Part shown: in pieces, positions 1 to 22,986 of the stretch
Layout of the letters: the number at the start of each line of letters is the position of its first letter
How positions within the stretch are numbered: the first letter of the stretch is position 1
Assembly: GCA_022705325.1 (NCBI GenBank)
Contig: JAKJER010000009.1
Location: forward strand, 38,532 to 70,531
Reading direction: 5' to 3'
Source of the DNA: Planctomycetota bacterium
GTDB taxonomy: Bacteria > Planctomycetota > Phycisphaerae > SM23-33
DNA: 32,000 nt
The notes under the pieces: model-generated
What the model was told of the DNA's origin: nothing
The model's database searches: none
Seen by the model: only the letters and a program-made list of their open reading frames with translations
Program-made: the position numbers and the translations under genes

Positions 1-3000
1 CCTATCAGTCGGCGGGCCAGACTCGGGGCATCTCGCTCCACTATGATTCCCTGCGAGCCGACCCGGTGCACGTGTACTACTTCAGCCTTACGCAGCTCTA
101 CGAGACCATGCAGGAAACGGACCCCAACCTGGACTACCAGATCGTCGTCCGCGTCCGGGCCCGGCTGGGCGAGACGATCCTGACGGTGGACGGGCTGGAC
201 AGCAAGCTGGCCGTACCCATGGGGCTCATGGGAGGCGAGCTGTTCTTCGAGATTCCCAACGACCTGGCGACCGACCGATACTACGGCATCGGCATTCCCA
301 TCGACTTTACCGGCGAGGAATTCGAGTCCGGCGGTTACACCATCCAACTCGAGGCGGGCCTCTACTCCTACACGGAAGACGACGACGGCAACCGCAAGTA
401 CACCGGGCGGATGATGGAAGTCACCACGCCCTTGCCGATCGTCAAGACCATGGACGGCCCGTTCGGTGCGGGCTGGGGCATGGAAGGCTGGATGGAGATC
501 CTGCCCGGCGACGGCTTCGTGCTCCTGGTCGACGGCAACGGAAACGAGCAGATCTTCTCCGCCCCCACCCAGGCGGGCGAGCCGTTCACCTCGGTCTCCT
601 CGGACTACTCCGAACTGAAGCAGTTGAGCGACGGGCGATTCACCCGCCGCATGCTCGACGGCACGGTCTATACCTTCAACTTCGACAACAAGCTCGAAAC
701 CGTCGCCGACCGCCACGGGAACACCACCACCTACGAGTACGACGACGACGGGTTCGTGCTCTCCATCACCGATCCGGTCGGCTTGAAGACCGTCTTCGAC
801 TACCACGGCAACCAGGTCTCGACAATTACCGACCCGGCCGGACGGATCACGCGCTTCGAGTACGGCAACCGCACATACAACGACGAAACGTATTCCGTTC
901 TCACCAGGATCATCGACGCCGACGACACGGACCGCTGGTTCCGCTACGAGAATGAAGACCACCCGCTCCTGGTGACCGGCCAGATCCATAAGCGCGGGCT
1001 CGAGGAGAGCATTACCTACGACGACGCTCTGTGGCGGGTCTCCGGGGGCGAACGAGTCGATGGCAAGACGGTGACGCTGGAGCCTGCCCAGGTCCGCGAA
1101 GGGTTTGTTGCCGAGCGCGACGACGAGGATCTGCTGATCTGCCGCGATCCGAAGCAGCCGACGGAACTGGCCGAACTGAGCCGAGTCGTGACCGAGACGG
1201 TGGGCGGCGTCACGACGGAAGTGATGAAGAACCAGGCCCAGGCCGAGTTCAAGGACTTCAACGAGCACCAGAAGCGATACGTCCTGGGGATGAACGGCTC
1301 GTACCTGCTGACCGAAGAGCTGGACGCCTCGGGCGGCACGGTGGCGGACGCCAAGCCCACGCGCGAGTTCACGCGGACCGAGTTCGGCGGGATCGCCGAG
1401 GAAAAGGACGCCCTCGGCAACATCATCAAGCAGGAGTACGACGAGTACAACAACGTCATCAAGATCACCGACTACCCCGACGGGCCCGGCACCGCTCGCG
1501 AGGCTGTCAACACCTACGACTACGACACCGAACACTGCAATCTGCTGATTGAGAAGACCGAGCAGATCAGCGACGGCCTGTTCCGGCGGACGACCTACGG
1601 CTGGACGCTCGCTTCCGGCGGCGACACGATGGTCCAGACCATCTACGACGACCTCGAACTGGGCAACATCGTCACCACCACCCATTTCTATGGCGATGGT
1701 CAGGTCCGCAGCACGATCGACGGCGTGGGGAACATCACCACGTACGTGTACGACACGTACGGCCGGCTCACCAGCATCACCTATGCGGGCGGGGCCGTCC
1801 GCAGGTTCGAGTACGGCGATCTGACGGGCAACCAGACGGCCGTCATCGACGAGAACGGCAACCGCACGGAATTCGTCTACGACGAGATGAACCGCGTCAC
1901 CGCGATTCGGAACATCATGGGCGTCGGCGCGACGTATACCACGCAGTACGACTATGACGAGGCGGGCAACCAGGTCGGCATGACCGACGCCCGGGGCAAC
2001 ACGACGAACTTCGCCTACGACGTATTGGGCCGCCGGATCAGCCGCGTGGACGAACTGGGACAGGCGACGTACTGGGGCTACGAGTACGGCGCGTTCACGA
2101 CGACGTATCTCGTGGCTACAGGGCCCGAGTACAGTTATGTGTACGAGAAGACGCCGCGCGGGTTCGTCCAGGTGACGGTCTACGACGAGTACTACCGCGA
2201 GAAGTACTACTACGACACCATGGGCAACCGCACCGAGACCGTGCGGGATGAGCTGGGACGGATCATCAAAGAGGTCGGCCCGTGGGGCACGCTGGCGACG
2301 TACGAATACAACGGGCGGGGCAAGGTCATCACGCGCATCGGGCCGGGCGACGGGGACGCGGGCATCATTCACTACGTCTACGACGACCTGGACCGCCTGA
2401 CCGTGCGGCGGGTTGAGAACGGCCTGGACGGCGCTGACGGCGACACCACCAACGACCAGGCCTACCGCTGGACGTACAATCATCTCGACCTGCCCACCGT
2501 GGAAGTCGACCCCGAGGGCTACCGCAAGGTCATCCACTATGACGCGGCCGGCAACCAGACGCAGGTGGTGGAAGCGGCCGGAACGCCTGAGGCCCGCACC
2601 ACGGACTTCGTGCAGTACGACGAGCGGAACCGGTTGCTCCAGACCCGTCTGGACGGCGTCTATCTCACGACGTACGAATATGACGCCGCAGGCAACCTGA
2701 CGGCCGAGATCGACGCCCGCGGGGCCCGCAAAGGGTACGCCTACGACGCGATAAACCGGCTGATCGAGACCACCGACGGCGAGGGCAACAAGACCGAGAC
2801 GATCTACGATGAGGTCGGCAACGTGGTGGGCGTGATCGACGGGCGGGCCAACGGCAGCCGCAGCGACACCACGTACCTCACCACGTTCGTCTACGACGAG
2901 GTCAACAGGCGGGTCGCGATGATCGACGCCGCCGGCGATCGCACCGACTACGAATATGACGAGGCGGGCAACATCATCACGATCACCAGCCCCCGGACCG

Positions 3001-6000
3001 ACGAGGGCGGCGGGCGATACGTGACCCGTCAACAGTGGGATGCCCTCAACCGCCTGATCGAGGTGGAAGACGCCGAGGGCAACAAGACCGAGTATCTCTA
3101 CGACGAGATGGGGCACCTGACGGCCGTCATCGACGCCCGGGCCCACGGCAACCGCGGCAGCAGCGCGTACCGCACGACGTACCACTTCGACCGGACCACC
3201 TACCGCAATGACTATGTCCGGGACGCCCTGGGCAACGTGGTCTACTTCGACTATGACCAGGCGGGCAACAAGATCCGCGAACGTTCTCCCCGCGACCACC
3301 AACTGGTCGCCACGGAGTACACGTACGACCGCCTCGACCGCTTGACCAGGACCACGTACGCCAAGGACACCGACGTGGAGACGTTCGAGTCCTGGGCCTA
3401 CGACGGGCTGGGCCGGGTGACCAGTGCCGTCGCCCTTACCGGCGGGACCACCACCTACAGCTACGACGGGGCCACCCTGACCACCACCGTCCGCAAGACC
3501 GACGGTACGAATACGTTCGTGGAGGTCTACCGCTACGACGTGGCCGGCAACCTCATCCAGTACGTCGACCCGCGTCCGCAGGCCTACCGTACCGTCTACA
3601 CCTACTATGACAATGACCTGCTCGAAAGCGTCACGTGGGCGGCTGGCACGGATGAGGAGGCTGTCGAGACGTACTTCTATGACCGGGCCAAGAACCTGGT
3701 TGCCGTGGTCGGCCCGCGGAAGAACGCGACTACGGGTCAGTTCTACCGGACGACCTTCGAGTATGACGCGCGGAGCTTCCAGATTGCCATGGTCGACGCC
3801 GAAGGCGTCCGGACGGAGTACGACAACGACGCGGCCGAGAACGTCATCGAGATGCGGAAGTACGATCGCAGCGGCACTGTGGACCGCGTGACCCGCAACG
3901 TCTACAACGGCGTGAGCCAGCTCGTCAAGCAGGTCGATCCGCTGGGGCGGGAGACGACTTACGAATACGACGAAGTCTACAACGTGCGGTTCGTCCATAA
4001 GCCGGAGAGCGACGCCGACGGTGCGCCGGTCTACAGCGAGTCCACCTACGACCCGCTGAATCGGCTGGTCCGCCAGCGGGATTTTGCCGGGTACACCACG
4101 CAGTTCCGCTACAACGAGGCGCTGCTGGTGAAGGTGATCGACGCGAGGGGTTACGAGACCCTCAACGAGTACGACCCGCGTGACCGGATCAAGAAGGTGA
4201 CGCAGGACATCGGCGGCGGCAGCCAGGCCGTCACGGAATACGCGTACGATGACGGCGCCCGGACGCGCGAGGTGAAGGACCCCGACGGGAACGTGACGCG
4301 CGAAACGTACGACCTGCTGGGGCGGATGACCTCGTCCACTCGGGCGTACGCTACTGCCAACGCTTTCACCGTTACCTACCGCTATGACGAGGCCGGCAAC
4401 CGTACGGAGGAGATCGACCCGCGTGGCGAGTCCTACGAGACGGCTTACGAGTACGACGGCCTCAACCGCGCCCGCAAGATCACCTGGGCCCCGGGGGTCC
4501 CCCTGGAGATGAGCGAGGTCAGGTACGATTACGATAAGGCCGGCAACTGCACGCGGTACGTCGATCCCCTGGGCAACGCGACCACGTATGCGTACGACGG
4601 CGTCGGCAACCTGGTGTCCGAGGTCGGTCCGACCGGGTTGGTCACCCTCTACCAGCGAGACGCTTATGGCAACGTGGTGACGGAGATTGACGGCTGGGGC
4701 GGGCAGACGGATAGCGAGTATGACAAGCTCGATCGTCTGACCTCCAGTACGGCCCACGTCGGCGGCGACACGTTCACCAGCTCCATCCAGTACTTTGACT
4801 CGCCCAGCCGTTCGCTTCTGACCGACGCCCTGGGCAACGTTACCGAAACGTGGTTCGACGGGGCCGATCGCCTGGTTCGCCAGAAGGACGCCGGCGGGTA
4901 TATCACCTACCAGGAGTACGACGGCGCCGGCAACCTGGTCAAGACGACCGATCCGGGCGGCAACGTCACGCGGTACGAGTACGACGGCCTCAACCGCCTG
5001 TCACAGGTCATCGCCTTCGCGGGCCAGGGAGCGGCTGAATACGTCAAACGCCGGGTTGAATACGATGCGGGCGGACGGGTGCTGCGAGACACCGACGCCG
5101 ACGGGGTCGTCACGATATACGAGTACGATTCGCTGGACCGGGCGACGATCATCCGTCGGGCGGCAGGACGGCCCGAGGAGACCGTCTCCCAGATGGGCTA
5201 CGACCCGCTCAGCGGGCGACTGAGCTATGAGGCGGGCGCGACCCGGACGGAATACCAGTATGACGCGCTGGGCCGCACGACGGCGGTCACCCAGGCGGCG
5301 GGCACGGCCAAGGCCGCCACCAATCGCGCCGAGTACGACGCTGCCGGAAACGTCACCGCGGAGGTCGACGTCACCGGCGCCAGGACCGAGTACACATATG
5401 ACGCACTCGGGCGGGCCCGGACGTCCATCCGCGTGTCCAGCGACGCCCCGCCCGGCTACACCATCGAATACGTGTACGACGACACGGCCCACAACCGGAG
5501 CGTCAGGACGATCTATCCGGAAGGCCGGACGGTCACCACGCACTACAACGACGAGGGACGGGTCGCCCAGATAGACGACAGCCGGGACGGCAATTGCCTC
5601 TACACCTACGACGCGATGGGCAACCTCATCTACTCCAAGGAGGGCCTGCTGGAGCGCAGCTACGGGTACGACGAACTCAATCGCCGGACCGCCATCACCG
5701 ATGCCGACGGCAATTCGACCGTCACCGTCTACGATCCCATCGGACAGATCGACAGCGTCACCGACGGCAACGGGGCGACGGTGGATTACGAGTGGGACGC
5801 CCCCGCCCGCCGCATGACCATTACAGAACGGGACGGCGGGCAGACCGTTCTGCTGTACGACCAGATGCGTCGACTCGCGAGCATCACCGACAGTTCCGGC
5901 AATGTCACGACCTATACCTACAACGCATTCGGACAGAAGCTGGCCGAAACCACCGCCTTCGGGGCGCGAACCTATACGTACGATGCAGCCGGACGGGTGA

Positions 6001-9000
6001 GCGACATCCAGGACCGCAACGGTCGCGCGATCTCGTATACGTACGACGAGCTTGGGTGGCAGACCGGCGAAACCTGGAAGAACGAGACCGGTTCGGTGGT
6101 CTGGACCGTGGAATACAACCGCGACGCCGCGGGACGACTCACCCGCGCTGCCGACGCCAATGCCGTCTACAGCTTCCAGTACGACGACCTGGGACGCCAG
6201 AACGTCGTGCTCGTGTCCGGGCAGGAAGGACTTGAGGACTTCGTATTCGATTATGACTACAACGGCGAGGACCTCGAGACCAGGCTGGTTGCCCGGGCCG
6301 GCGCCAGCGAACTGCTGACCAACGAGTACGCCTACCCGGCGGACGAGAACTACCGCCTGTCGAATATCTCGCAGGCCGGGGCGGCCGTGGCGGCCAAGTC
6401 GGTCGTCTTCGACTACGACGACGCGGACTACTCCACGCGAAGCGTCAGCCGCTACTCGGACCTGGCCCGCACGCAACTGGTGGCCCAGACGACCATCGAC
6501 TACAACAACCGTCGCCTGACCGACGAGATTGTCCACCGCGACTCCCAGGGCACGCTGCTGCACAGCCTGCGCATCGCCAGTTCCACCGGCGACGGCTACG
6601 ACGGGGCCGGCCGGATCACCGGAATCAGCAGCTCTGTTGACGGCGACGTCGCGTATACCTACAGCAACGAGGGCCAGCTCGAGCTGGTGGATTACTCCAG
6701 CGCCGCCCGGGCGGACGAGGCCTACGGCTGGCCCGATAACGGCAACCCGGAAGGCGTGGAGGTCGGCGCGGACAACCGCGTTCTCTCCGACGGCACGCGA
6801 ACCTACCAGTACGACGCCGAGGGCAACGTTCTCGAGGCCCGCGAGGCCACCGGGCAGGCCCGGGCCTACACCTACGACAACCACAACCGCCTGGTCCTGG
6901 TCGAAGACAAAGACGCGGACGGGACGGTCACGCGGCGGACGCAGTATCGCTACGACGCGCTGGGGCGACGGCTGGCCTCCGTCGTGGACGAAGACGCCAC
7001 CGACGAGATCGAAGGCGACAGCCGTTACTACGTCTACGACGGCACGAACGTGCTCGTGGAGTATGTCGACGAGGTCCTGGCAGTGGCTGGGGCGGAACTG
7101 GCCCAGGGCAACGGGACCGACACGGTCTTCACCGGCCGGCTCGACCACGGGCGCGTGGCGCCCACGTCGGTGCGGGTGCGGGCCGCTGGAGTGGAACTCA
7201 CCGACGACGGCGGCGGCGTGCTCTCCGGTCCGGGCGGAATGGTCGGCGCGATCGACTACGCCACCGGCGAATGGACGGTGGACACAGGCGCCACCGTGCT
7301 GAACATCGGCGAGGCCGTCCAGGCCGACTATCGCTTCCGCACCGAACCCCATCGCGACGCGACCTATCTCCATGGCGTCGGCTATGACAGCGCCCAGGCC
7401 GAGGAACGGGCCGACGGCAGCGTCTACTGGTACCTCACCGACCACCTCGGCAGCGTCACCGACGTGGTCGACCAGGACGGCACGCTGGTCGATCACGTGC
7501 AGTACAACTCCTTCGGCGAAGTCACCGCCCGCAGCAACGAGGACCTGGACAACCGCTACCTGTACACCGGCCGCGAGTACGACAGCGAGACCGGGCTGTA
7601 CTACTATCGCGCCCGCTACTACGACCCGCAGCTCCGCCGGTTCCTCAGCCGCGACCCGGCCGGGCTGTCCGGCGGCGATACGAACCTCTACCGTTACGTG
7701 GGCAACAGCCCGACCACGCACGTGGACCCGACCGGCAACTTCGGCATGTATGCCTCGCCGATGCGCCAGATGGAGCAGCGATTCAAGGCCTTCTGGGGCC
7801 TGAGCGACGAGTTCGTCGACCCCAACGCCTGGTGGCATGATCCCAAGAACGGCCTGTTCACCCAGCAGTCCCAGGTGGCCGCCAACTGGTTCTTCGGTTT
7901 CATGCCCCCGCCCAACATGAACTGGCTGGAGGCGATCGCCTGGCCGGTCACCAAGATCATCAACGACGTCAAGGAAACGCTGGTCAAGGACGCGATCGAG
8001 CGGGTCGAGGCCCGCGGCGGCGAGTGGGGCGTCATGGACACCCTGATGCTCACTGCCGCCACCAGCACGGTCGACATCGCCAATACCATCGCCGGGATCG
8101 TCTCGCCCACCTACGGCATGCTCCAGTTAGGCCCCATGATCGTCCACGCCCCGGAACTGATCTCCAACGGCTACAAGGGCGTCAGCGGTCTGCTGCACCG
8201 CGACTTCAGCGACGAGAATATCATCGAGACCTGCAACGTGGTCATGCTGGTCGCCCTGCCCGTGGCCATGAAGGGCGTCCACATGGTCCTGGAGGGGGGA
8301 CCGGTCGCCCGCCCGGTCGGCGGCAAGGGGTTCTGGTCCAACAAGGTCGCCCCCGTCCTCAACAGCATCGACAACCTGATGTTCAGCGAGCTGCCCGGCG
8401 TGTTCAAGACCGGCAAGCTCCGAACCGGCAGCACGCTGGGCGCCAACCTCCGCGGCCTGCTCGCCGACACCGTCAGCCTCTTCAAGTCCGACATCCGCGA
8501 GCTGATCACCTCGGAGTCCAAGGTCGCCAAGACCGCCAAGCCCACCGTGGCCAAGCAGGTCGCCGCCACCGCCGATGACGTCAAACCCCCCGCCAACAAG
8601 TCGTCCGATTTCCTTCGCGAGGCCGACTCGCCCGAGGTCAACCGACAGTACGATCTGCCCGAGAAGGTCAAGCCCACGGCTGAAACCCTCTACATGGACG
8701 AGAAGCAGATCGAGACCTTCTTCCGCACGGCCGACGCTAAGGGTTGGGCCAAGGACGTCGCCCGCACGATGGACAACATCCCCGAGTTGGCCAAGCAGGT
8801 CCGCGAGATCCTCAAGCCCGCCCGCGAGGCCCAGATGCAGACCCTGATGAAGGAAGTGCCTTGGCTGAACAATCGCAATCCGACTGCCGTCGCCATTAAG
8901 AACTTCCTGCGCTGGTGCGACGACGACGGCACGGGCCACTGGCACGCCTTCCGCAAAGGGCTCCTCGACGCCATCGAAAACAAGAAGATGACCCTCAAGG

Positions 9001-12000
9001 AGTTCGAGGTCTTCGGCTTTGCGCCCAAATGGCTGCGCGAAGGCATGATGGAGGCGACGATCGAGTCCGGCGACATGATCGTTGCCCAGGGCGCCAAGGG
9101 CACCTCCATGCCCGCGCTCTGGCTGGAGTACAAGGCCGCCCGCAATCTCCGAGAGGGCGGCCCCGTCAGTGCCAAGTACTATGAGATCACATGGGAGCTC
9201 GGATTCAAGGTTGAGAAGTATGCCAAGAAAGGGCCCATGGAGGCACAGACGGACATCGATGTGACGTCCGCCCGGATCGTCGAGGCCGCCAATGCCGTCA
9301 TCCGGGAAATGCAGAACCAGGCCCTCGACGGGGACATGACGGCTCTAAATGCCTTCGAGAAGTTGACCGCGTCGTCGGACTGCACGCCGCTTATCCAGTG
9401 GATCACCGGCGAGGTCAGCAAAGAACTCGGCCCGGCCAAGACGCTGCTGAACGAGATCGACATCCTGAACAAGAACACGCAGGTGAACAATCTCCGCCTG
9501 GATCTGGTCAACGTCGGCAAGCAGGTCGAGAACGCCCTGGCCAAGCAATTCCCGAAGTTTGCCGCCAAGAACGCCATCGACGTGTTCGGCTACACGTTCC
9601 GTCCGCAGACGCACGTCGAGACTATCATGGGCGGGTTGAAGTACTTCCCGGATCGCGGAGTAGCCCCCGCCTGGGTGCCGGGGCGGGCCATCACGACGAT
9701 CAAGGAAGTCCTGGATTGGCTGCCCACCAACTACCTGCCGCTGCGCAGCGACGTCGAGTCGCTTCCGTTTGCGCCCAATGCGGTCGAAACCACCGAGCCC
9801 GCCAAGCCCGTGTCGGCCGGTCAGGCCTACCCCGACGACGATCTGGGCGAAGGCGACAGTGCGGGTCCTGCTACGTCAGCAGAAGACTCCGTCGAGAAGG
9901 ACTTCACCGCGACCGTGCGCCGGATGGCCGAAGTGGCCGCTTCCGCCTGGGCCAGCTACCTGGGATTCGACGTGCCCGTGACCATCCAGGTGGCCGGGCG
10001 CGACCTGCCCGCGGGCGTTCTGAGCTGGGCGGCTATCCGAGAGTACGACGCTCAGGGCCGGCCCAAGGTCGGCGTGATCTTCGTCGATCTAGACGCAAAT
10101 GGGCGTCAATGGTTCGTCGATTCCACTCCGCTGGACCAGGAGGAGTTCCTCGGCGGCGTCGAACCGTTCTCGTACCGCGCCGACGCCACCGGCGACGCCT
10201 ACGGCTGCTATGACCTGCTGACCACGCTGCTGCACGAGGTGGGCCACATGATCGGCTTCACCGACTCCTTCGCCGGTTTCGCCGCCAGCGTGACTGGCGA
10301 CTCAGCCGGGCAGTCGTTCTTCATTGCAGACGGCGTCAAACTGGAACTCACTCCCGATCGCGACCACCTGGCCGGCGCCCGCGTCGATCTGATGAGCAAC
10401 ACGCTGCCGCTCTCGCAGCGCCGCCTGCCCTCGCCCAGCGACATCCAGGTCCTTCGCTCGGCCTGGAGCGGACTGACGGCCGCGGGCGGCTGGCAGGTCG
10501 AACTGCTGCCCGAGGATGCCGAGTTCCTGGCCCTCAGCAGCCAGCGGCTGGGCTTCGTCCTCATCGACGAAGCGGTCGCCGCCGACGCCGTCGACCCGCA
10601 CAGCGGCATTTTCAACGGCGACTTCGCCATCTCCGATCCTGCCGATCCGAACTTCGGCTGGCGGACGTTCGGGCAGGTCGACATCGCGGACTCGATGGCC
10701 ATCCTGGGCGAATCCGGCGAGTGGCTGTTCAGCGACCTGTCCCAGACGTTCCGGGTCCCGCTCGGGGCCAACGAACTGCATCTGACGCTGTCGAACGTGC
10801 TGCTGGAGTCGCTGGTGGGCGTGCCCGGCGATGCCTTCGAGATCGCCTTGCTCGATGCCGCCAGCGGGCTGTCCGTTCGCGGACCGATGACCGGACTGGA
10901 CGGCGGCGACGCCCTGTTCAACCTCCAGGCCGACGGGACTGTCTGGTTCGCCCCGGGCGTGCGGCTGGAGGAGTTCCCCGAGGCGGTCTCGGGCCAGATC
11001 ATCTCCCTCGAAGGACCGCTCCACCTGACCGTCTATCTGCCGCCCGCCATCCAGGGCGGCGTGGCCGTGCTCCTGGCGGACCTGGTCGGTTTCGGTCAGC
11101 CGCAGGCCTCTGCCCAGGTCGATTCGGTGACCCTGACGGCAGGCCCCGTCGAGAACGAGCCTCCCGTGGCCGTCGACGACCAGGCCAGTGCCGGGCCGGA
11201 CACGGATGTCACCATTTCCGTCCTGGACAACGACAGCGACGTCGACGGCAGCCTGATGCCGGCCACGGTGGTCGTCTCCACGGCGCCGGCATGGGGCGTC
11301 GCCGTCGCCAATGCCGACGGCACGATCACCTACGCGCCGCAAGGCTTCGTCGGCGAGGTCACCTTCGGCTATACCGTCCGCGACGACTGGGGCGATGTCT
11401 CCAACGAGGCCATCGTCACCGTTACCGTCGGGGCCAACACGCCCCCGACGGCCGACGATTCCATGCTGGTCATCGACGAGGACGTCCCCTCTTCCGGCGC
11501 CGTCACAGGGAGCGATGCCGAGGGCGATCCCCTCACCTTCGCCCTGGTGGACGGAACGGCCCACGGCAGCCTGGAGTTCAACGGGGACGGAACGTTCACC
11601 TACACGCCGGACGGCGACTGGTTCGGCGCCGACAGCTTCACCTTCACCGCCAACGACGGCGAGTTCGACTCTTCGTTGGGCACGGTCAGCATCACCGTCA
11701 ATGCGGTCAACGACGCCCCGACGGCTGACGACGCCGACTTCGCCACAGACGAAGACCTTCCGCTGGAGGGCCTGCTGAGCGGCGCCGACATCGAGAATGA
11801 TCCGCTCACCTTCGCCCTCGTCCAACAGCCCGCGCACGGCTCGGCTGTCGTCAATGGCGACGGGACGTTCACCTATACCCCGGACGCCGACTGGTTCGGG
11901 GACGACAGCTTCACCTTCACCGCCAACGACGGCGAGCAGGATTCTCCGTTCGGCACGGTGAGCATCACCGTCAATCCGATCAACGACGCCCCGGCCGCTG

Positions 12001-17376: not shown

Positions 17377-17547
17377 AGGAGTGCTGCGGGGCTGGCGTTT
17401 CTTCGTCAGAGACTGCTGATAGGCCCCGCAAAGCCGACCCGCCGAAAAGAATGGACGCATGTGCGGGCGGCGGTACAATACAGTTGGTCCGCGCGTTTGA
17501 CGGTGTGGCAGCTCAAGGTCCAGTCGCCAGAAGACCGGAGGTGGTGC

Positions 17548-17874
17548 ATGGCCTCAGAATACGTCGATTGCTGCGAAAACCCGTCCCTGGAGAAGGTCAA
17601 GGTGTTCCTCTCGACGGACTACGACATCGTTGCCATTCGGCGATGCCGCTCGTGCGGATGCTACTGGTACTACTGGATGAAGGAGCGGACGTTCAGCGAT
17701 GCCGACACCTATGACCGGAGCATCTGGTACGTGCGCCTGAATCCCGAGGAAGCGAACGTTCTTGCCGACGCTTCGGCGGCGCCGGAACTGAGCCTGTTCA
17801 AGGACCGCCCGGGTCTCCTGAAGGACTCCGACGGCATGAACGCCATCCGGGGCATCCCGCGGTTTCTGGAGTAG
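17548..17874 (+). CDS. Small Cys-rich hypothetical protein (108 aa) between the two plus-strand RyR-tail genes
   Basis: GGAGG at 17537-17541 precedes the ATG at 17548 (MASEYVDCCENPSLEKVKVF...). Composition is diverse and protein-like, with high GC3. Cys cluster: CC(8-9) and CRSCGC(33-38). I recognised no family. The listed ORF start at 17461 adds an Arg/Trp-rich stretch with no RBS. Confidence 0.6.
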   Translation: MASEYVDCCENPSLEKVKVFLSTDYDIVAIRRCRSCGCYWYYWMKERTFSDADTYDRSIWYVRLNPEEANVLADASAAPELSLFKDRPGLLKDSDGMNAIRGIPRFLE

Positions 17875-17883
17875 GCGAGCCGA

Positions 17884-19647
17884 ATGAAACAGGTCTGGTG
17901 GCTCTGGAACAGGTTCGTACGACCGGGATGGAAGAAATGGGAATGGCCGGTGGTGGGGGCATTGGCGCTGGTCGCCTTTTCGCTGGGCACCTGGGGGTTC
18001 GCCCGCAAGTCCATCGAGAACGATCAACCCCTGTACTGGCTGGACATCCTGTTCCAGTCGGTGCAGTTGTTTGTACTCCAGCTTTCGCTTCAGTCTCCCA
18101 TGCCGTGGCAGTTGAACGTTGCCCGGTGGCTGGCGCCCCTGGTGGCTGGGTACACCGCCGTCCAGGCCGTGAGCGAGCTGCTGGCCGAGGAGTTCCTGGG
18201 TCTGCGGCTGCGCCTGTGGGGTCGCGGACACGTCGTCATCTGCGGGTTGGGTCGAAAAGGGATGATCCTCGCCCGCGGGTTTCTCCAGTGCGGGCGGCGG
18301 GTGGTGGTGATCGAGCAGGATGCGGAGAATGACCGCGTCCGCCAGTGCCGCGAACTGGGCATCCCCGTCCTGCTGGGCGACGCCGCCCAGGTGCGCCTCC
18401 TGGCCAGAGCGGGCGCGGACCGGGCCGAGTGCCTCTTCGCGTTCTGCGGCGACGACGGGGTCAACGCCGACATTGCCGTCCGGGCTCGCAGCGCGCTGGC
18501 TGGCCGTGACGGTCCGCCTCTGACCTGCGTGCTGCACCTTGTCAACCCGCAACTCCATGCCCTGCTGCAGGATCGCGAACTGGCGGGAGGGGAAGTCGGA
18601 TCCCTGCAACTGGAATTCGTCAATACCTGCGACCTCGGAGCGCGAGTGCTGCTGGAGGAGTTTCCGCTGGCGACAGGCGGACCGGCCGGTCCGCCGAGAA
18701 TCGTGATTGTCGGGCTGGGAGGCCTGGGTGAGAGTCTGCTGGTACACGCAGCCCGGCAGTGGAAGGCGTCGGCTGCGGGCGAAACAGCCCTGGACGTCGT
18801 GCTGGTGGACCGAAGCGCCCGAGAGGTGAGCGAGCGTCTGCTGGCGCAGTACCCGGGGCTCGATCGGGTCTGCTCACTGACGGTCCTCGACATGGACGTG
18901 AACTCGGCGGCGTTCCACCGTGCGGAGTTCCTGGACGGCTTGGCCCCGGACGCTCCGCCGCCGTGCGTGTTCGTCTGCGTGGACGATGACTCCCTCGGCT
19001 TGTCCACAGCCCTGGCGCTGGTGCGGCGCAAGCGGCAACCGGCACCTACTGTCGTGGTCCGCATGGCCCAGGAAACAGGACTGGCCGCGCTGCTGGGTGA
19101 GGATGCTCTCAATTCAGGGCGAGTTCACAACCTGCACGCCTTTGGGCTGCTGGATCGCACTTGCCGGCCGGACCAGATGCTGCGAGGCGTGCGAGAAGTC
19201 CTGGCCCGAGCCATCCACGAGCAGTACCTGCGACAGCAGAGGGAGGCGGGCGTGACGCGCGAGCAGAACTCATCGTTCGTGCCGTGGGAGGACCTGAGCG
19301 AGCACTTTAGAGAATCCAACCGCCAGCAGGCCGACGACATCGCCGCCAAGCTGCGGGCGGTCGGCTGCGCGGCTGTCCCGAACTACAACTGGGACGAGCC
19401 GCTCTTCGCCTTCACGCCCGACGAGGTCGAACGCCTGGCGCGGATGGAGCACGAGCGGTGGATGGCAGCCAAAGAGAAAGCCGGCTGGCGGCCCGGCCCG
19501 ACCAAGAGCGAGACACTCAAGACGCATACCTGTCTGGTGCCGTATGACGACCTGAGCGAGGACGAACGGGAGAAGGACCGCAGCGCCGTTCGACAGATAC
19601 CAGCCTTGCTTCAGCGGATCGGCTTTGGGGTGCACCGGCTGCGCTAG
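17884..19647 (+). CDS. Membrane protein (587 aa): N-terminal TM/pore-like segment + tandem RCK/TrkA-N NAD-binding-type Rossmann domains + RyR-domain tail
   Basis: Hydrophobic helices WPVVGALALVAFSLGTWGF (17944-18000) and ARWLAPLVAGYTAVQAVSELL (18121-18183) flank the short helix WLDILFQSVQLFVLQ. GxGxxG motifs: HVVICGLGRKGMILARGFLQCGRRVVVIEQD (GLGRKG at 18244-18261) and RIVIVGLGGLGESLL...VVLVDRS (GLGGLG at 18712-18729). The RyR tail is at 19189-19644. Confidence 0.85.
   Translation: MKQVWWLWNRFVRPGWKKWEWPVVGALALVAFSLGTWGFARKSIENDQPLYWLDILFQSVQLFVLQLSLQSPMPWQLNVARWLAPLVAGYTAVQAVSELLAEEFLGLRLRLWGRGHVVICGLGRKGMILARGFLQCGRRVVVIEQDAENDRVRQCRELGIPVLLGDAAQVRLLARAGADRAECLFAFCGDDGVNADIAVRARSALAGRDGPPLTCVLHLVNPQLHALLQDRELAGGEVGSLQLEFVNTCDLGARVLLEEFPLATGGPAGPPRIVIVGLGGLGESLLVHAARQWKASAAGETALDVVLVDRSAREVSERLLAQYPGLDRVCSLTVLDMDVNSAAFHRAEFLDGLAPDAPPPCVFVCVDDDSLGLSTALALVRRKRQPAPTVVVRMAQETGLAALLGEDALNSGRVHNLHAFGLLDRTCRPDQMLRGVREVLARAIHEQYLRQQREAGVTREQNSSFVPWEDLSEHFRESNRQQADDIAAKLRAVGCAAVPNYNWDEPLFAFTPDEVERLARMEHERWMAAKEKAGWRPGPTKSETLKTHTCLVPYDDLSEDEREKDRSAVRQIPALLQRIGFGVHRLR
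19189..19644 (+). other. Bipartite RyR-domain tail of the TM-RCK protein
   Basis: LARAIHEQYLRQQREAG...FVPWEDLSEHFRESNRQQADDIAAKL ... LARMEHERWMAAKEKAGWRPGPTKSETLKTHTCLVPYDDLSEDEREKDRSAVRQIPALLQRIGFGV. This is the closest of the three tails to the canonical RyR repeat consensus. Confidence 0.8.
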
Positions 19648-19659
19648 GCGGATGCGTCG

Positions 19660-22536: not shown

Positions 22537-22578
22537 GTCTGGCCGCTTGTTTCATTTCTGTCAAGTCATCCGATCGGT

Positions 22579-22986
22579 CTATCCGCGTGCGGCCCACGAT
22601 CGGGCCAGATCGCTCCACCCGTCGGTCAAATCATAATCAAGCAACTGCGCCATGGGGATCCACGCGTGCTTGTCGTGCTCCTCGCTCAGCGCGAATGTCC
22701 CGCCGATGACCGCAGTCTCCATGCAGAGCGTTGCCACCCGGACCTTCTCCATCTCGAACCCGAACGCCCCCGCGACGCCCAACACCTCAACGGAGAGCCC
22801 CGTTTCTTCCGTCACTTCGCGCCGCAGGGCTGCATCGAATGTCTCGCCGGGGTCCATCTTCCCGCCGGGCAATTCCCATCGTCCGACGAATCGCTTGCAC
22901 GCGTTAGCGCGGCGGAGCAGCAGGCAGTGACCGTGCTCGTTGCGAATCACCGCCCGGACGGCCAAGCTGTAGGGTTTGGCGAGCAT
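22579..22986 (-). CDS. Nudix hydrolase (135 aa), directly upstream of and co-oriented with the AAA+/RyR gene
   Basis: The Nudix box is read directly: GGKMDPGETFDAALRREVTEETGL (G-x5-E-x7-REUxEExGU). SD GGGAGAAGG precedes the ATG at 22986 (MLAKPYSLAVRAVIRNEHGHCLLLRR). The longer listed start at 23034 has no SD and adds MARRAKGFVSSNREKA. Confidence 0.85.
   Translation of the reverse strand: MLAKPYSLAVRAVIRNEHGHCLLLRRANACKRFVGRWELPGGKMDPGETFDAALRREVTEETGLSVEVLGVAGAFGFEMEKVRVATLCMETAVIGGTFALSEEHDKHAWIPMAQLLDYDLTDGWSDLARSWAARG

What the first reader, a model, noticed from the sequence alone, without database searches (positions are those of the whole stretch)
7725..13955. RHS cage followed in frame by 2,072 residues, far beyond any encapsulable toxin
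In characterised RHS, Tc-toxin C and related cages, the sequence after the core boundary (P-x4-DPxG-L/W) is a C-terminal toxin, typically a few hundred residues at most. It is autoproteolytically released inside the shell. Here the boundary reads SPTTHVDPTG-N (Asn instead of the usual Leu/Trp), and the ORF continues uninterrupted for 6.2 kb. The extension contains hydrophobic segments, a metallopeptidase-like motif, five Ig/cadherin-like domains and a solenoid-like end. These features are typical of a surface adhesin or enzyme rather than a caged toxin. Three explanations are possible: the cage serves as an internal module of a giant surface protein, the tail is threaded outside the cage, or an ancestral RHS gene fused with a downstream adhesin gene.
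Basis: partly seen in the sequence, partly recalled or inferred. Interest (0 to 1): 0.65.

Follow-up and report, generated by a model that had tools for sequence, protein, structure and literature searches.

The report
RHS cage inside a giant protein
A bacterial RHS "toxin cage" with an apparently intact self-cleavage site sits in the middle of a 9,500-14,000-residue protein. It is followed by a conserved 2,072-residue multi-domain arm that is far too big to be caged cargo, an arrangement so far described mainly for animal teneurins and mosquito SGS1.

Summary
One frame is open from window nt 3 to the stop at 13955. The Rhs-associated core ends exactly at nt 7736 (HVDPTG|N), and 2,072 residues (222 kDa) follow.

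It is not an assembly artefact. Three independent assemblies are collinear with no indels. A 98% strain variant keeps the frame, with pN/pS 0.05-0.29 in every segment. A Lentisphaerae MAG ortholog (48% identity) is collinear across the boundary for 1,234 tail residues.

The gene is called at 9,555-14,134 aa, so the cage is an internal module.

In 117 close RHS homologues the tail is at most 681 aa (median 178).

Tail layout:
- aa 1-230: conserved, moderately hydrophobic segment, weakly predicted helical
- linker
- aa 321-675: orphan Lys-rich domain, variable between strains
- HExxH zincin-like domain
- beta-rich region
- five tandem-95/cadherin-like repeats
- a terminal domain that also exists as a stand-alone LEPR-XLL protein

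The catalytic R/D/D of the autoprotease is conserved. Asn after DPxG is not unusual.

Best reading: a teneurin/SGS1-like topology. The first 200-300 residues are lodged in the shell and the acidic arm is outside, probably after self-cleavage. This topology and the cleavage are inferred, not shown. New variant of a known kind.

The parts
3..450 (+). Pre-shell region (window protein aa 1-~150) ending in the 'GPFGAGWGMEGW' start of the YD spiral. The frame is open at the window edge, so the gene continues upstream.
   Evidence: This is among the most conserved stretches against the L012 ortholog (58-70% identity). No Pfam hit.
451..7736 (+). RHS/YD-repeat shell region, about 2,430 aa. That is roughly the size of a whole TcB-TcC cocoon and 2-3 times a T6SS Rhs cocoon.
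   Evidence: RHS_repeat 25 stretches, E 4e-174. YD_repeat_2x and RHS_core hits. In the AF2 model of window nt 5337-8696, the last 800 aa of the shell have pLDDT mostly above 90 (whole-model pTM 0.72). Foldseek hits to Tse15, Tse5, RhsA, TLP, teneurins, TcB-TcC and SGS1 at E 1e-46 to 1e-22.
7065..7352 (+). Lineage-specific insert of about 95 aa between the last YD repeats and the Rhs core.
   Evidence: Occupied in only 12-22% of 60 aligned RHS homologues. Conserved in P0123 and L012. Low pLDDT in the model.
7503..7736 (+). Rhs repeat-associated core (aspartyl autoprotease plug). Sequence: R-A-R...SRDPAG-x20-DPTG.
   Evidence: TIGR03696, 85 bits. R, D, D spacing of 13 and 24 residues is identical to BiTLP R2103/D2116/D2140 (sequence read against PMC13018210). 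The first Asp is conserved in 116 of 117 homologues.
7725..7739 (+). Core boundary DPTG|N. The predicted scissile bond is N|F.
   Evidence: DPTGN is conserved in P0123 (DPTGNSGLYAS) and L012 (DPTGNFGMYAS).
7737..8426 (+). Tail aa 1-230: conserved, moderately hydrophobic segment, predicted helical at low confidence. Candidate in-shell anchor.
   Evidence: 59-61% identity to P0123 with no drop across the boundary. 48-52% identity to L012. pN/pS 0.05 for tail aa 1-160. Helices predicted only at low confidence.
8427..8696 (+). Lys/Pro/Ala-rich linker (tail aa 231-320).
   Evidence: Sequence. Lowest identity to L012, about 30%.
8697..9761 (+). Domain X (tail aa 321-675): orphan, Lys-rich, predicted alpha-helical. 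Conserved motifs include DDGxGHW, LWxEYKA, KYAKxGP, WVPGR and NYLPL.
   Evidence: No hit in Pfam, NCBIfam, PHROGs, PADLOC or PDB. Only relatives are L012 and L007. AF2 pLDDT 39.5.
8423..9965 (+). Strain-level divergence island (recombination tract) covering the linker and domain X.
   Evidence: About 9% nt divergence against about 1% elsewhere, compared with L007. pS 0.22 against 0.03, pN/pS 0.17. A 9-nt in-frame deletion at 9785-9793.
9903..10511 (+). Zincin-like domain (tail aa 723-925). HEVGHMIGFTD lies at nt 10233-10265.
   Evidence: 37% identity to aa 1409-1605 of a Planctomycetes tandem-95 protein, P0001. Weak NF038122 and M6 hits, all below cut-off. H833, E834, H837 and H877 are invariant in the three-sequence alignment A2 (window, L007, L012).
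10512..11153 (+). Acidic, Lys-free region of unknown fold (tail aa 926-1139).
   Evidence: 41-46% identity to L012. No family hit.
11154..12536 (+). Five tandem-95 / Big_9 / cadherin-like repeats. Units start at nt 11154, 11436, 11709, 11982 and 12255.
   Evidence: Big_9 E 1e-82, Cadherin_4 and Cadherin_5. tand_rpt_95, 258 bits against a cut-off of 90. Unit starts. Only the first unit is shared with L012.
12876..13943 (+). Terminal domain D (about 356 aa), a module that also occurs as a stand-alone protein.
   Evidence: 58% identity to P0138, a 435-aa stand-alone gene with an N-terminal LEPR-XLL motif (NF012209, 21.8 bits against a cut-off of 17). Absent from L012.
13953..13955 (+). Stop codon of the giant gene.
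   Evidence: Same stop in L007.

Best explanation
**What it is.** The window holds the last 4,650 residues of a 9,500-14,000-residue protein. The organism is a Phycisphaerae (Planctomycetota) bacterium, known only from metagenome assemblies and a MAG. The habitat was not verified here.

**The cage.** An oversized RHS/YD shell of about 2,430 aa, closed by a canonical Rhs core, is an internal module of this protein. What follows the core is not a polymorphic toxin. It is a conserved multi-domain arm.

**Proposed topology, by analogy with teneurins and mosquito SGS1.**
1. The first 200-300 post-core residues are conserved, moderately hydrophobic and predicted helical. They stay inside the shell as an anchor or plug.
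2. The chain leaves the shell at the Lys/Pro/Ala-rich linker.
3. The rest lies outside as a surface-exposed adhesive/proteolytic arm: domain X, a zincin-like domain, a beta-rich region, cadherin-like repeats and terminal domain D.

**Cleavage.** The catalytic Arg and both Asp residues of the Rhs autoprotease are conserved with canonical spacing. The precursor is therefore probably cut at DPTGN|F. The 222-kDa arm would then be held non-covalently through its lodged N-terminus until something releases it.

**Shown:** ORF continuity, the internal position of the cage, conservation of the junction and arm, domain content, and the cocoon fold of the last 800 RHS residues.

**Inferred:** where the chain exits, whether cleavage happens, and surface location.
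For: **Real and continuous**
- L001, L002 and L003 come from three samples. They are 99.97-100% identical to the window over nt 4146-27376 with no gaps.
- L007 (98.1% nt identity) keeps a single frame to the same stop. pN/pS is 0.05-0.29 in every segment.

**Internal module**
- The gene product is called at 14,134, 11,564 and 9,555 aa.

**Conserved architecture**
- Window aa 1-3812 aligns in one HSP at 48% identity to L012/L013, a Lentisphaerae MAG (MHBL01000116.1).
- The junction reads DPTGNFGMYAS there, and the ortholog's tail is 1,528 aa.
- P0123/L006 is 61% identical across the junction.

**Not a polymorphic toxin**
- Identity does not fall at the boundary.
- No toxin family hit.
- The downstream genes differ between the window and L012.

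**Too large for caging**
- 222 kDa, against tails of at most 681 aa in 117 homologues.
- About 35 kDa is the maximum natural cargo for the roughly 250-kDa TcB-TcC cocoon (PMC6868009).
- BiTLP has a 44,000 cubic-angstrom cavity and C-terminal domains of about 15 kDa (PMC13018210).

**Arm modules work without cages**
- P0001 carries the zincin-like domain plus tandem-95 repeats.
- P0138 is a stand-alone domain D with an LEPR-XLL motif.

**Precedent for a lodged segment plus external C-terminus**
- Teneurin: a 126-aa internal linker, then the chain leaves through a gap.
- SGS1: about 230 aa of helices inside, exit through a mid-opening, and autocleavage.

**Autoprotease motif and cocoon fold**
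- The autoprotease motif is intact.
- The cocoon fold is confirmed for the last 800 RHS residues.
Against: - No structural evidence places the first tail residues inside the shell. AF2 gives pLDDT 25-55 for them and 39.5 for the tail alone.
- The hydrophobicity of tail aa 1-230 is modest: maximum Kyte-Doolittle score 1.56 and no clear transmembrane helices.
- Cleavage is untested, and the residue after DPxG is Asn rather than Leu.
- The N-terminal 5,000-9,500 residues could not be retrieved. The secretion route and surface location are therefore unknown.
- Tail aa 1-~700 is a conserved Lys-rich, near-neutral island. It sits between strongly acidic, Lys-poor regions in both orthologs. This might mean that more than the first 300 residues share a shielded environment.
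- The protein libraries searched evidently do not hold giant proteins. Neither the window's own product nor the L012 protein was returned. Rarity and the tail-length comparison are therefore biased.
Confidence: 0.6

Rival explanations
1. Enlarged-cage toxin. The roughly 2,430-aa RHS region forms an unusually large cocoon. Its cargo is the whole Lys-rich, near-neutral first 700 or so tail residues (about 80 kDa: the hydrophobic segment plus domain X, a new toxin). Only the acidic zincin/cadherin arm is outside, acting as a targeting module. In effect this would be a single-chain cage, toxin and receptor-binding device.
For: - The RHS region is 2-3 times a T6SS Rhs cocoon, and its length is conserved in the ortholog.
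- There is a sharp composition switch at about tail aa 700, conserved in both orthologs: K 18-25 per 250 aa and net charge near 0, against K 0-5 and net -20 to -43.
- Tc cargo needs a higher pI than its surroundings (PMC6868009).
- Strain-level variability is concentrated in the linker plus domain X, as in polymorphic toxins.
- The autoprotease motif is intact.
- PMC6868009 explicitly asks whether adding RHS repeats could enlarge the cocoon.
Against: - The empirical cargo-to-shell mass ratio (about 30-35 kDa per roughly 250-kDa TcB-TcC; about 15 kDa for BiTLP) predicts about 35 kDa for this shell, not 80 kDa.
- Domain X is conserved at 39-47% between phylum-level orthologs, like the rest of the protein, and evolves under purifying selection (pN/pS 0.17).
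- No toxin family hit.
- No conserved downstream immunity gene.
- The segment's pI is 5.6-6.5, not basic.
Confidence: 0.17
2. Uncleaved structural scaffold. As in metazoan teneurins, the shell is only a rigid spacer or interaction platform within a giant adhesin. The chain passes through uncut and nothing is ever released.
For: - The sequence after the boundary is conserved like a structural element.
- The residue after DPxG is Asn, not the usual Leu.
- Teneurins show that this topology exists without cleavage.
- The giant-protein context fits.
Against: - Teneurins have lost the DPxG-x-DPxG motif (PMC13018210). Here R, D and D are retained with exact spacing in all three lineages.
- Asn, Glu, Thr and Met after DPxG occur in ordinary RHS proteins.
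- SGS1, which has the same topology, is cleaved.
Confidence: 0.18
3. Whole-tail encapsulation. All 2,072 residues are stored unfolded inside the giant shell and released as cargo.
For: Only the unusual size of the RHS region and the intact protease motif.
Against: - The tail (222 kDa) is nearly as heavy as the shell region.
- At 1.21 cubic angstroms per Da it needs about 270 cubic nanometres even at crystal density. The 78-strand teneurin shell encloses 130 cubic nanometres in total and 44 cubic nanometres free.
- The tail's net charge is strongly negative.
- Its modules are classical extracellular folds that function in cage-free proteins.
Confidence: 0.03
4. Artefact: an assembly chimera, a hidden frameshift or a decaying pseudogene joins an RHS gene to an adhesin gene.
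For: - The repeat-rich, high-GC sequence comes from metagenomes.
- The gene length differs between assemblies.
- One relative, L006, is frameshifted.
Against: - Three independent assemblies are collinear without indels.
- The frame is intact and under purifying selection in a 98% strain.
- A 48% ortholog is collinear across the junction.
Confidence: 0.02

Closest known systems
Metazoan teneurins (e.g. Ten2, PDB 6FB3)
   Same: - YD shell closed by an Rhs core.
- A segment after the core (126 aa) lies inside the shell.
- The chain then leaves through a gap, and C-terminal domains sit outside.
- The shell is one module of a large adhesion protein (PMC5851990).
- Foldseek E about 5e-34 to the window's shell model.
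   Different: - Teneurins have lost the DPxG-x-DPxG autoprotease motif and are not cleaved there. Here the motif is intact.
- The teneurin external C-terminus is about 200 aa; here it is about 1,750-1,850 aa.
- The shell here is about 3 times longer.
- No FN-plug or NHL domain was detected.
Mosquito SGS1 (PDB 8FJP)
   Same: - A large Rhs/YD shell of about 100 strands.
- An intact aspartyl autoprotease that is used.
- About 230 aa of hydrophobic helices after the cleavage site are lodged in the shell.
- The chain exits through a mid-opening and a further domain (Tox-SGS) lies outside (PMC9935623).
- Foldseek E 1.7e-22.
   Different: - The SGS1 tail after the core is about 630 aa; here it is 2,072.
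- SGS1 helices are predicted transmembrane helices; here hydrophobicity is only moderate.
- No sequence similarity between the tails.
- SGS1 is a eukaryotic secreted protein, not a module of a protein longer than 9,500 aa.
Bacterial teneurin-like proteins (BiTLP, PDB 9IFO) and T6SS Rhs effectors (Tse5, Tse15, RhsA)
   Same: - RHS cocoon plus Rhs core with R/D/D.
- Identical D-D spacing of 24 and R-D spacing of 13.
- Best Foldseek hits, E 1e-46 to 1e-39.
- 25-37% sequence identity to ordinary RHS proteins.
   Different: - Their C-terminal domains are short toxins (about 15 kDa for TLPs; median 178 aa in 117 homologues). These are fully enclosed, hypervariable from the boundary onward, and paired with immunity genes.
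- Here the tail is 222 kDa and conserved from the first residue. It has no toxin domain and no conserved neighbour gene.
TcB-TcC cocoon of ABC (Tc) toxins
   Same: - Comparable total shell mass (about 250 kDa).
- Autoproteolytic Rhs core.
- Foldseek E about 2e-27.
   Different: - No TcB/SpvB/mid-domain hits.
- Natural cargo is at most 35 kDa, basic and unfolded (PMC6868009).
- Here the tail is acidic to neutral and 6 times larger.
Giant tandem-95 / cadherin-like surface proteins of the PVC superphylum
   Same: - Proteins of 10,000 aa or more are frequently detected in Planctomycetota and other PVC phyla (bioRxiv 10.1101/2023.11.21.568195).
- The arm shares tandem-95 repeats and a zincin-like domain with P0001.
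- Domain D also occurs in a stand-alone LEPR-XLL protein, P0138.
   Different: No RHS cage with an Rhs core is described as an internal module of such proteins in the papers I read. That paper mentions only RHS-like beta-helix tubules.

Membership tests
RHS/YD-repeat cocoon proteins with Rhs-associated core | Multiple YD/RHS repeats (PF05593 / TIGR01643) | tested here: met
   25 RHS_repeat stretches, E 4e-174. YD_repeat_2x E 1.9e-115.
RHS/YD-repeat cocoon proteins with Rhs-associated core | Rhs repeat-associated core domain (TIGR03696) closing the repeats and ending in P-x4-DPxG | tested here: met
   85 bits against a cut-off of 32.5. Ends at nt 7736 with SPTTHVDPTG.
RHS/YD-repeat cocoon proteins with Rhs-associated core | Catalytic Arg plus two Asp (DPxG-x20-DPxG) | tested here: met
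   The window reads RAR...SRDPAG-x20-DPTG. The spacing is identical to BiTLP R2103/D2116/D2140. Conserved in P0123 and L012.
RHS/YD-repeat cocoon proteins with Rhs-associated core | Beta-cocoon fold | tested here: met
   In the AF2 model of window nt 5337-8696 (whole-model pTM 0.72), 569 of 1,120 residues have pLDDT of 90 or more, nearly all in the 800 RHS residues. Foldseek E 1e-46 to Tse15/Tse5. The upstream ~1,600 aa of repeats were not modelled.
RHS/YD-repeat cocoon proteins with Rhs-associated core | Autoproteolysis at the core boundary | not testable with these tools
   Needs protein chemistry.
Rhs polymorphic toxin systems (T6SS Rhs, TcC, WapA-type) | C-terminal toxin small enough to be enclosed (tens of kDa) | tested here: not met
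   The tail is 2,072 aa, 222 kDa. Homologues reach at most 681 aa.
Rhs polymorphic toxin systems (T6SS Rhs, TcC, WapA-type) | Sequence becomes hypervariable immediately after DPxG | tested here: not met
   59-61% (P0123) and about 50% (L012) identity continue across the boundary. pN/pS for tail aa 1-160 is 0.05. Variability starts only at about tail aa 229.
Rhs polymorphic toxin systems (T6SS Rhs, TcC, WapA-type) | Recognisable toxin domain and adjacent cognate immunity gene | tested here: not met
   No toxin family in Pfam, NCBIfam, PHROGs or PADLOC. The downstream gene is a 1,076-aa RelA_SpoT-RyR protein in the window and a prepilin-like protein in L012.
Rhs polymorphic toxin systems (T6SS Rhs, TcC, WapA-type) | N-terminal trafficking domain (PAAR, VgrG-binding, signal peptide and others) | not testable with these tools
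   The N-terminus lies 4,900-9,500 aa upstream of the window and could not be fetched.
Teneurin / teneurin-like (TLP) superfold | FN-plug and NHL beta-propeller preceding the YD shell | tested here: inconclusive
   No Pfam or PDB hit in window aa 1-199 or in the 736 aa upstream in L012. The only hit is a sub-threshold choice-of-anchor-I (propeller-type) match, E 2e-5.
Teneurin / teneurin-like (TLP) superfold | Post-core segment lodged in the shell, with the C-terminus leaving through a gap (metazoan teneurins, SGS1) | not testable with these tools
   The AF2 tail residues have pLDDT 25-55. The topology is inferred from size and conservation only.
Tandem-95 / bacterial cadherin-like repeat proteins | Tandem repeats of about 95 aa matching NF012211 / PF17963 | tested here: met
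   Five units. NF012211 258 bits against a cut-off of 90. Big_9 E 1e-82.
Zincin metallopeptidases | HExxH plus a third zinc ligand, and a family-level profile match | tested here: inconclusive
   HEVGH and a downstream His (H877) are invariant in the alignment of window, L007 and L012 (A2). HExxH and an aligned His also occur in P0001. Only sub-threshold profile hits: NF038122 19 bits against 80, and Zincin_1 E 0.28.

The most novel reading that the evidence does not exclude
Bacteria of the PVC group already have the 'threaded' YD-shell topology so far described for the animal proteins teneurin and SGS1, but with the autoprotease still active.
- An enlarged, roughly 2,430-aa cocoon inside a giant surface protein would cut its own chain.
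- It would then hold a 222-kDa protease/adhesin arm by a lodged N-terminal segment of about 25-35 kDa.
- The shell would thus act as a self-cleaving holster or release latch for a very large effector, rather than as a container for a small toxin.

A stronger form of this reading is that the natural shell enlargement also raises the cargo limit, and the roughly 80-kDa Lys-rich segment is a new caged effector.
Probability: 0.35. Interest if true: 0.75.

Novelty: new variant of a known kind. Interest (0 to 1): 0.6.

Why it matters
- **It tests a stated rule.** Current structural work treats the cavity volume as a hard limit on what follows an Rhs core in bacteria. The figures given are about 15 kDa for bacterial teneurin-like proteins and at most 35 kDa for Tc toxins. 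The same work asks whether adding RHS repeats could enlarge the cocoon (PMC13018210, PMC6868009).
- **It breaks that rule in a conserved way.** This family has a tail of 1,528-2,072 residues behind an apparently functional autoprotease. It also has a shell region 2-3 times the usual length.
- **It offers a bacterial counterpart to animal proteins.** The exit-through-the-wall topology is known from teneurins and SGS1, both thought to derive from bacterial genes. This family may be a bacterial example of it.
- **It is a natural test case.** It bears on cage enlargement, which is relevant to engineering Tc and Rhs delivery devices.
- **It adds a module type to the giant proteins of Planctomycetota and Lentisphaerae.**

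Tried and rejected
**Retrieving the upstream part of the gene**
- The genome contigs and metagenome-contig scans with window peptides found nothing.
- The look-up of encoding contigs reaches only 10 kb upstream of the neighbouring gene.
- The first 4,900-9,500 residues therefore remain unseen.

**Homologue searches with the tail**
- Tail aa 1-1250 against 5.8 billion proteins gave only two hits, to the zincin-like domain (P0001) and to cadherin repeats (P0002).
- Tail aa 1-720 by HMMER against 1.84 billion representatives gave one fragment, P0123.
- Neither search returned the window's own protein. The libraries evidently lack giant proteins.

**Identifying folds**
- AF2 of tail aa 1-720 as a single sequence gave pLDDT 39.5, which is unusable for fold search.
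- AF2 of 800 aa of RHS plus 320 aa of tail modelled the shell well. It left the tail at pLDDT 25-55, so the 'lodged inside' idea could not be tested.
- Pfam at E up to 5, NCBIfam, PHROGs, PADLOC and PDB sequence or profile searches on domain X, the beta-rich region and domain D found nothing meaningful.

**Ideas rejected**
- Asn after DPxG as a sign of an inactive or special site. It occurs in 4-5 of 117 ordinary homologues.
- Similarity of the tail to any tail of the 120 closest RHS homologues. There are no BLAST hits at E of 0.01 or better.
- Solenoid periodicity in domain D. It is not above shuffles.
- L006 as a clean ortholog. It is frameshifted and skips window aa 1510-2312, so it was used only for the junction.
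- P0129 was not on record.

Full report
**1. Observation**

The + strand frame that the ORF listing reports as 66..13955 is open from nt 3, so the gene enters the window already in progress.
- The first 2,578 residues carry 25 Pfam RHS_repeat stretches (E 4e-174).
- They also carry a single TIGR03696 Rhs-associated core (85 bits against a cut-off of 32.5). Its last residue is the G of SPTTHVDPTG at nt 7736.
- The frame then runs for 2,072 more residues (222 kDa, pI 4.3) to the stop at 13953-13955.

- HEVGH is at tail aa 833.
- There are five Big_9 / Cadherin_4 / Cadherin_5 / tandem-95 units.
- The hydrophobic stretches are only moderately hydrophobic.
- The 'solenoid-like end' could not be confirmed.

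**2. It is not an artefact**

The neighbouring gene led to the source contigs.
- The window is 100% identical to JGI 3300010346 Ga0116239_10000307.
- An NCBI MAG (GCA_029564755.1) differs by 4 substitutions and an ENA assembly by 6. Neither has any indel over nt 4146-27376.
- A 98.1% strain variant (L007) keeps one frame from its contig end through the junction to the same stop. Its only indel is a 9-nt in-frame deletion. pN/pS is 0.09 (RHS), 0.05 (tail aa 1-160), 0.17 (aa 161-720) and 0.23-0.29 (the rest).

The whole tail is therefore coding sequence under purifying selection.

**3. Context**

The same call shows the gene product annotated at 14,134, 11,564 and 9,555 residues in the three assemblies. 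The RHS cage is thus an internal module of a giant protein. Names given by sources to cluster members place the organism in Phycisphaerae, Planctomycetota. Proteins of 10,000 aa or more are frequently detected in Planctomycetota and other PVC phyla (bioRxiv 10.1101/2023.11.21.568195). I could not fetch the upstream 4,900-9,500 residues.

**4. Comparison with ordinary RHS proteins**

The 120 best hits to the last 600 RHS residues are ordinary RHS proteins of 430-1,313 aa at 25-37% identity. In 117 of them the core could be aligned.
- Tail after DPxG: median 178 aa, 95th percentile 396, maximum 681.
- Residue after the G: L 71, E 11, T 7, M 5, N 5 and others. Asn is therefore not remarkable.
- The first catalytic Asp is conserved in 116 of 117.

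None of their tails resembles this one.

The window's core reads RAR...SRDPAG-x20-DPTG. Its Arg-Asp and Asp-Asp spacings (13 and 24) are identical to R2103/D2116/D2140 of the solved bacterial teneurin-like protein. In that protein these residues drive cleavage after DPxG-L. Mammalian teneurins lack the motif (PMC13018210).

An AF2 model was built of the last 800 RHS residues plus 320 tail residues, from a 61-sequence alignment.
- It gives a confident shell: 569 residues at pLDDT 90 or more, pTM 0.72.
- The shell matches solved cocoons: Tse15 1e-46, Tse5 7e-46, TLP 4e-39, teneurins about 1e-34, TcB-TcC about 1e-27, SGS1 2e-22.
- The tail part is unmodelled (pLDDT 25-55).

**5. Relatives of the tail**

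Tail aa 1-720 has a single relative among 1.84 billion representatives. This is P0123, a fragment that is 61% identical across the end of the RHS region, DPTGN and tail aa 1-153. After a frameshift in its 2.9-kb contig, similarity continues to about tail aa 256.

A pattern scan built from that alignment found L012, which is the same contig as L013: MHBL01000116.1, 'Lentisphaerae bacterium RIFOXYA12_64_32'.
- Window aa 1-3812 aligns to it in one HSP at 48% identity.
- The junction there reads MVDPTGNFGMYASSMR.
- Its tail is 1,528 aa. It is collinear with window tail aa 1-1234 at 37% identity and then ends differently, with only one or two cadherin-like units and no domain D.
- Identity is highest at the two ends of the shell (58-70% at window aa 1-300, 72% at the core). 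It does not collapse after the boundary (48-52% in tail aa 1-220).

'RHS cage plus a tail longer than 1,500 aa' is therefore an old, conserved architecture.

Caveat: neither the window's own protein nor the L012 protein was returned by the protein searches. Those libraries evidently lack giant proteins. The rarity of this architecture and the tail-length comparison are therefore biased towards short proteins.

**6. Anatomy of the tail**

| Tail aa | Description | Key evidence |
|---|---|---|
| 1-230 | Conserved, moderately hydrophobic, weakly predicted helical, 25 kDa | |
| 231-320 | Lys/Pro/Ala-rich linker, least conserved | |
| 321-675 | Domain X: Lys-rich, predicted helical, invariant motifs (DDGxGHW, LWxEYKA, KYAKxGP, WVPGR, NYLPL), no detectable family | |
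| 676-722 | Acidic linker | |
| 723-925 | Zincin-like domain: HEVGH plus a conserved His 40 residues on. 37% identity to the C-terminal part of a Planctomycetes tandem-95 protein. Profile hits are below threshold | |
| 926-1139 | Acidic, beta-rich region | |
| 1140-1600 | Five tandem-95 units | |
| ~1714-2069 | Domain D: 58% identical to a stand-alone 435-aa protein (P0138) whose N-terminus carries an LEPR-XLL motif | |

Two further patterns stand out.
- Against L007, divergence jumps about 7-fold in nt 8423-9965, which covers the linker and domain X. pS is 0.22 against 0.03, which points to a recombination tract.
- In both orthologs, tail aa 1-~700 is a Lys-rich, near-neutral island. It lies between the acidic, Lys-poor shell and the very acidic remainder of the tail, which has only a handful of Lys beyond about tail aa 720.

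**7. Mechanism**

Size arguments come from solved systems.

| System | Shell | Cargo or cavity | Source |
|---|---|---|---|
| TcB-TcC | about 250 kDa | about 30 kDa; largest natural cargo 35.1 kDa | PMC6868009, |
| BiTLP | YD shell | cavity 44,000 cubic angstroms; C-terminal domains about 15 kDa | |
| Teneurin | 78 strands | 130 cubic nanometres enclosed, 44 free | |

The RHS region here is about 2,430 aa, or about 265 kDa. By the same ratio it could house about 35 kDa. That fits tail aa 1-230 or 1-320 and not the 222-kDa tail.

Both known cases with longer regions after the core solve the problem the same way.
- In teneurins, a 126-aa linker stays inside. [quoted passage not shown]
- In SGS1, about 230 aa of hydrophobic helices stay inside after the used autoprotease site. 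The chain exits through a mid-opening, and Tox-SGS is outside.

I therefore propose the same topology here. The conserved first 200-300 residues are lodged in the shell. The chain exits at the linker, and the rest forms an external protease/adhesin arm. The R/D/D motif is retained in all three lineages, whereas uncleaved teneurins lost it. I therefore think cleavage at DPTGN|F is somewhat more likely than not. It would leave the arm held non-covalently.

Steps shown: continuity, internal position, conservation, domain content and the cocoon fold. Steps inferred: the lodged segment, the exit point, cleavage and surface location.

**8. Rivals**

- **Enlarged-cage reading.** The first ~700 residues (about 80 kDa) would be cargo of a naturally enlarged cocoon. 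It is kept alive by the composition island, the variable cassette and the oversized shell. It is weakened by the cargo-to-shell ratio and by orthologous conservation of domain X. There is also no toxin signature and no conserved immunity gene.
- **Uncleaved scaffold.** This cannot be excluded without protein data.
- **Whole-tail encapsulation and artefact.** Both are effectively excluded.

**9. Novelty**

The parts are known: RHS cocoon, Rhs core, tandem-95 repeats, zincin-like domain. The topology has animal precedents. The following combination is not described in the papers I could read:
- an apparently active Rhs core in bacteria followed by a conserved multi-domain arm of 1,500-2,100 residues;
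- a shell 2-3 times the normal length;
- all of it embedded in a protein longer than 9,500 aa.

It also contradicts the stated size constraint on bacterial C-terminal domains. I rate it a new variant of a known kind, with interest 0.6.

Noticed in passing
window 14146-22986: Three consecutive genes each end in a RyR domain: RelA_SpoT + RyR (14146-17376, +), TrkA_N + RyR (17884-19647, +) and AAA/bpMoxR + RyR (19660-22536, -). A NUDIX gene follows. This could be a nucleotide-signalling or conflict cluster. PADLOC gives nothing convincing.
   Followed up: partly
upstream of window nt 1 (gene start not in window): The same giant gene is called at 14,134 aa (NCBI MAG), 11,564 aa (ENA) and 9,555 aa (JGI). 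These assemblies are 99.97-100% identical over the shared 23 kb. The differences could come from repeat collapse, frameshifts or start-site calls upstream.
   Followed up: no
window 8423-9965: Recombination-like island against strain L007: about 9% nt divergence against about 1% elsewhere, pS 0.22 against 0.03, and a 9-nt in-frame deletion at 9785-9793. It covers the linker and the orphan domain X and starts about 229 aa after the Rhs boundary.
   Followed up: yes
window 7737-~9900 (and L012 tail aa 1-~660): A Lys-rich, near-neutral composition island (K 18-25 per 250 aa) is conserved in both orthologs. It is flanked by an acidic, Lys-poor shell and by an arm with only a handful of Lys beyond about tail aa 720. 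This is unexplained. It may mark a segment that sees a different environment.
   Followed up: partly
window 7065-7352: An insert of about 95 aa just before the Rhs core is absent from about 80-88% of 60 RHS homologues. It is conserved in P0123 and L012 and is poorly modelled by AF2. It could be an external decoration or part of an exit gate.
   Followed up: partly
L008 526-1833 (P0138): The giant protein's terminal domain D exists as a stand-alone 435-aa gene with an LEPR-XLL N-terminal motif in an unrelated gene neighbourhood (radical SAM, pyridine-nucleotide oxidoreductase). Domain D is therefore a mobile module.
   Followed up: yes
L006 1-2904: This 2.9-kb contig carries a 61%-identical junction. 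It is frameshifted and skips the equivalent of window aa 1510-2312. It has two copies of a Ser/Pro/Leu-rich low-complexity stretch next to the breaks. It is a misassembly or a decaying copy.
   Followed up: partly
L012 2-2209: In the Lentisphaerae ortholog, the 736 aa preceding the window-equivalent start look like a beta-propeller. The only hit is a sub-threshold choice-of-anchor-I match. This suggests a propeller-plus-shell unit, as in TcB, teneurin and SGS1.
   Followed up: partly
window 5001-7838 (-) and 10302-14006 (-): Very long antisense ORFs (945 and 1,234 aa) overlap the giant gene. They are most likely by-products of the 65% GC content rather than genes.
   Followed up: no
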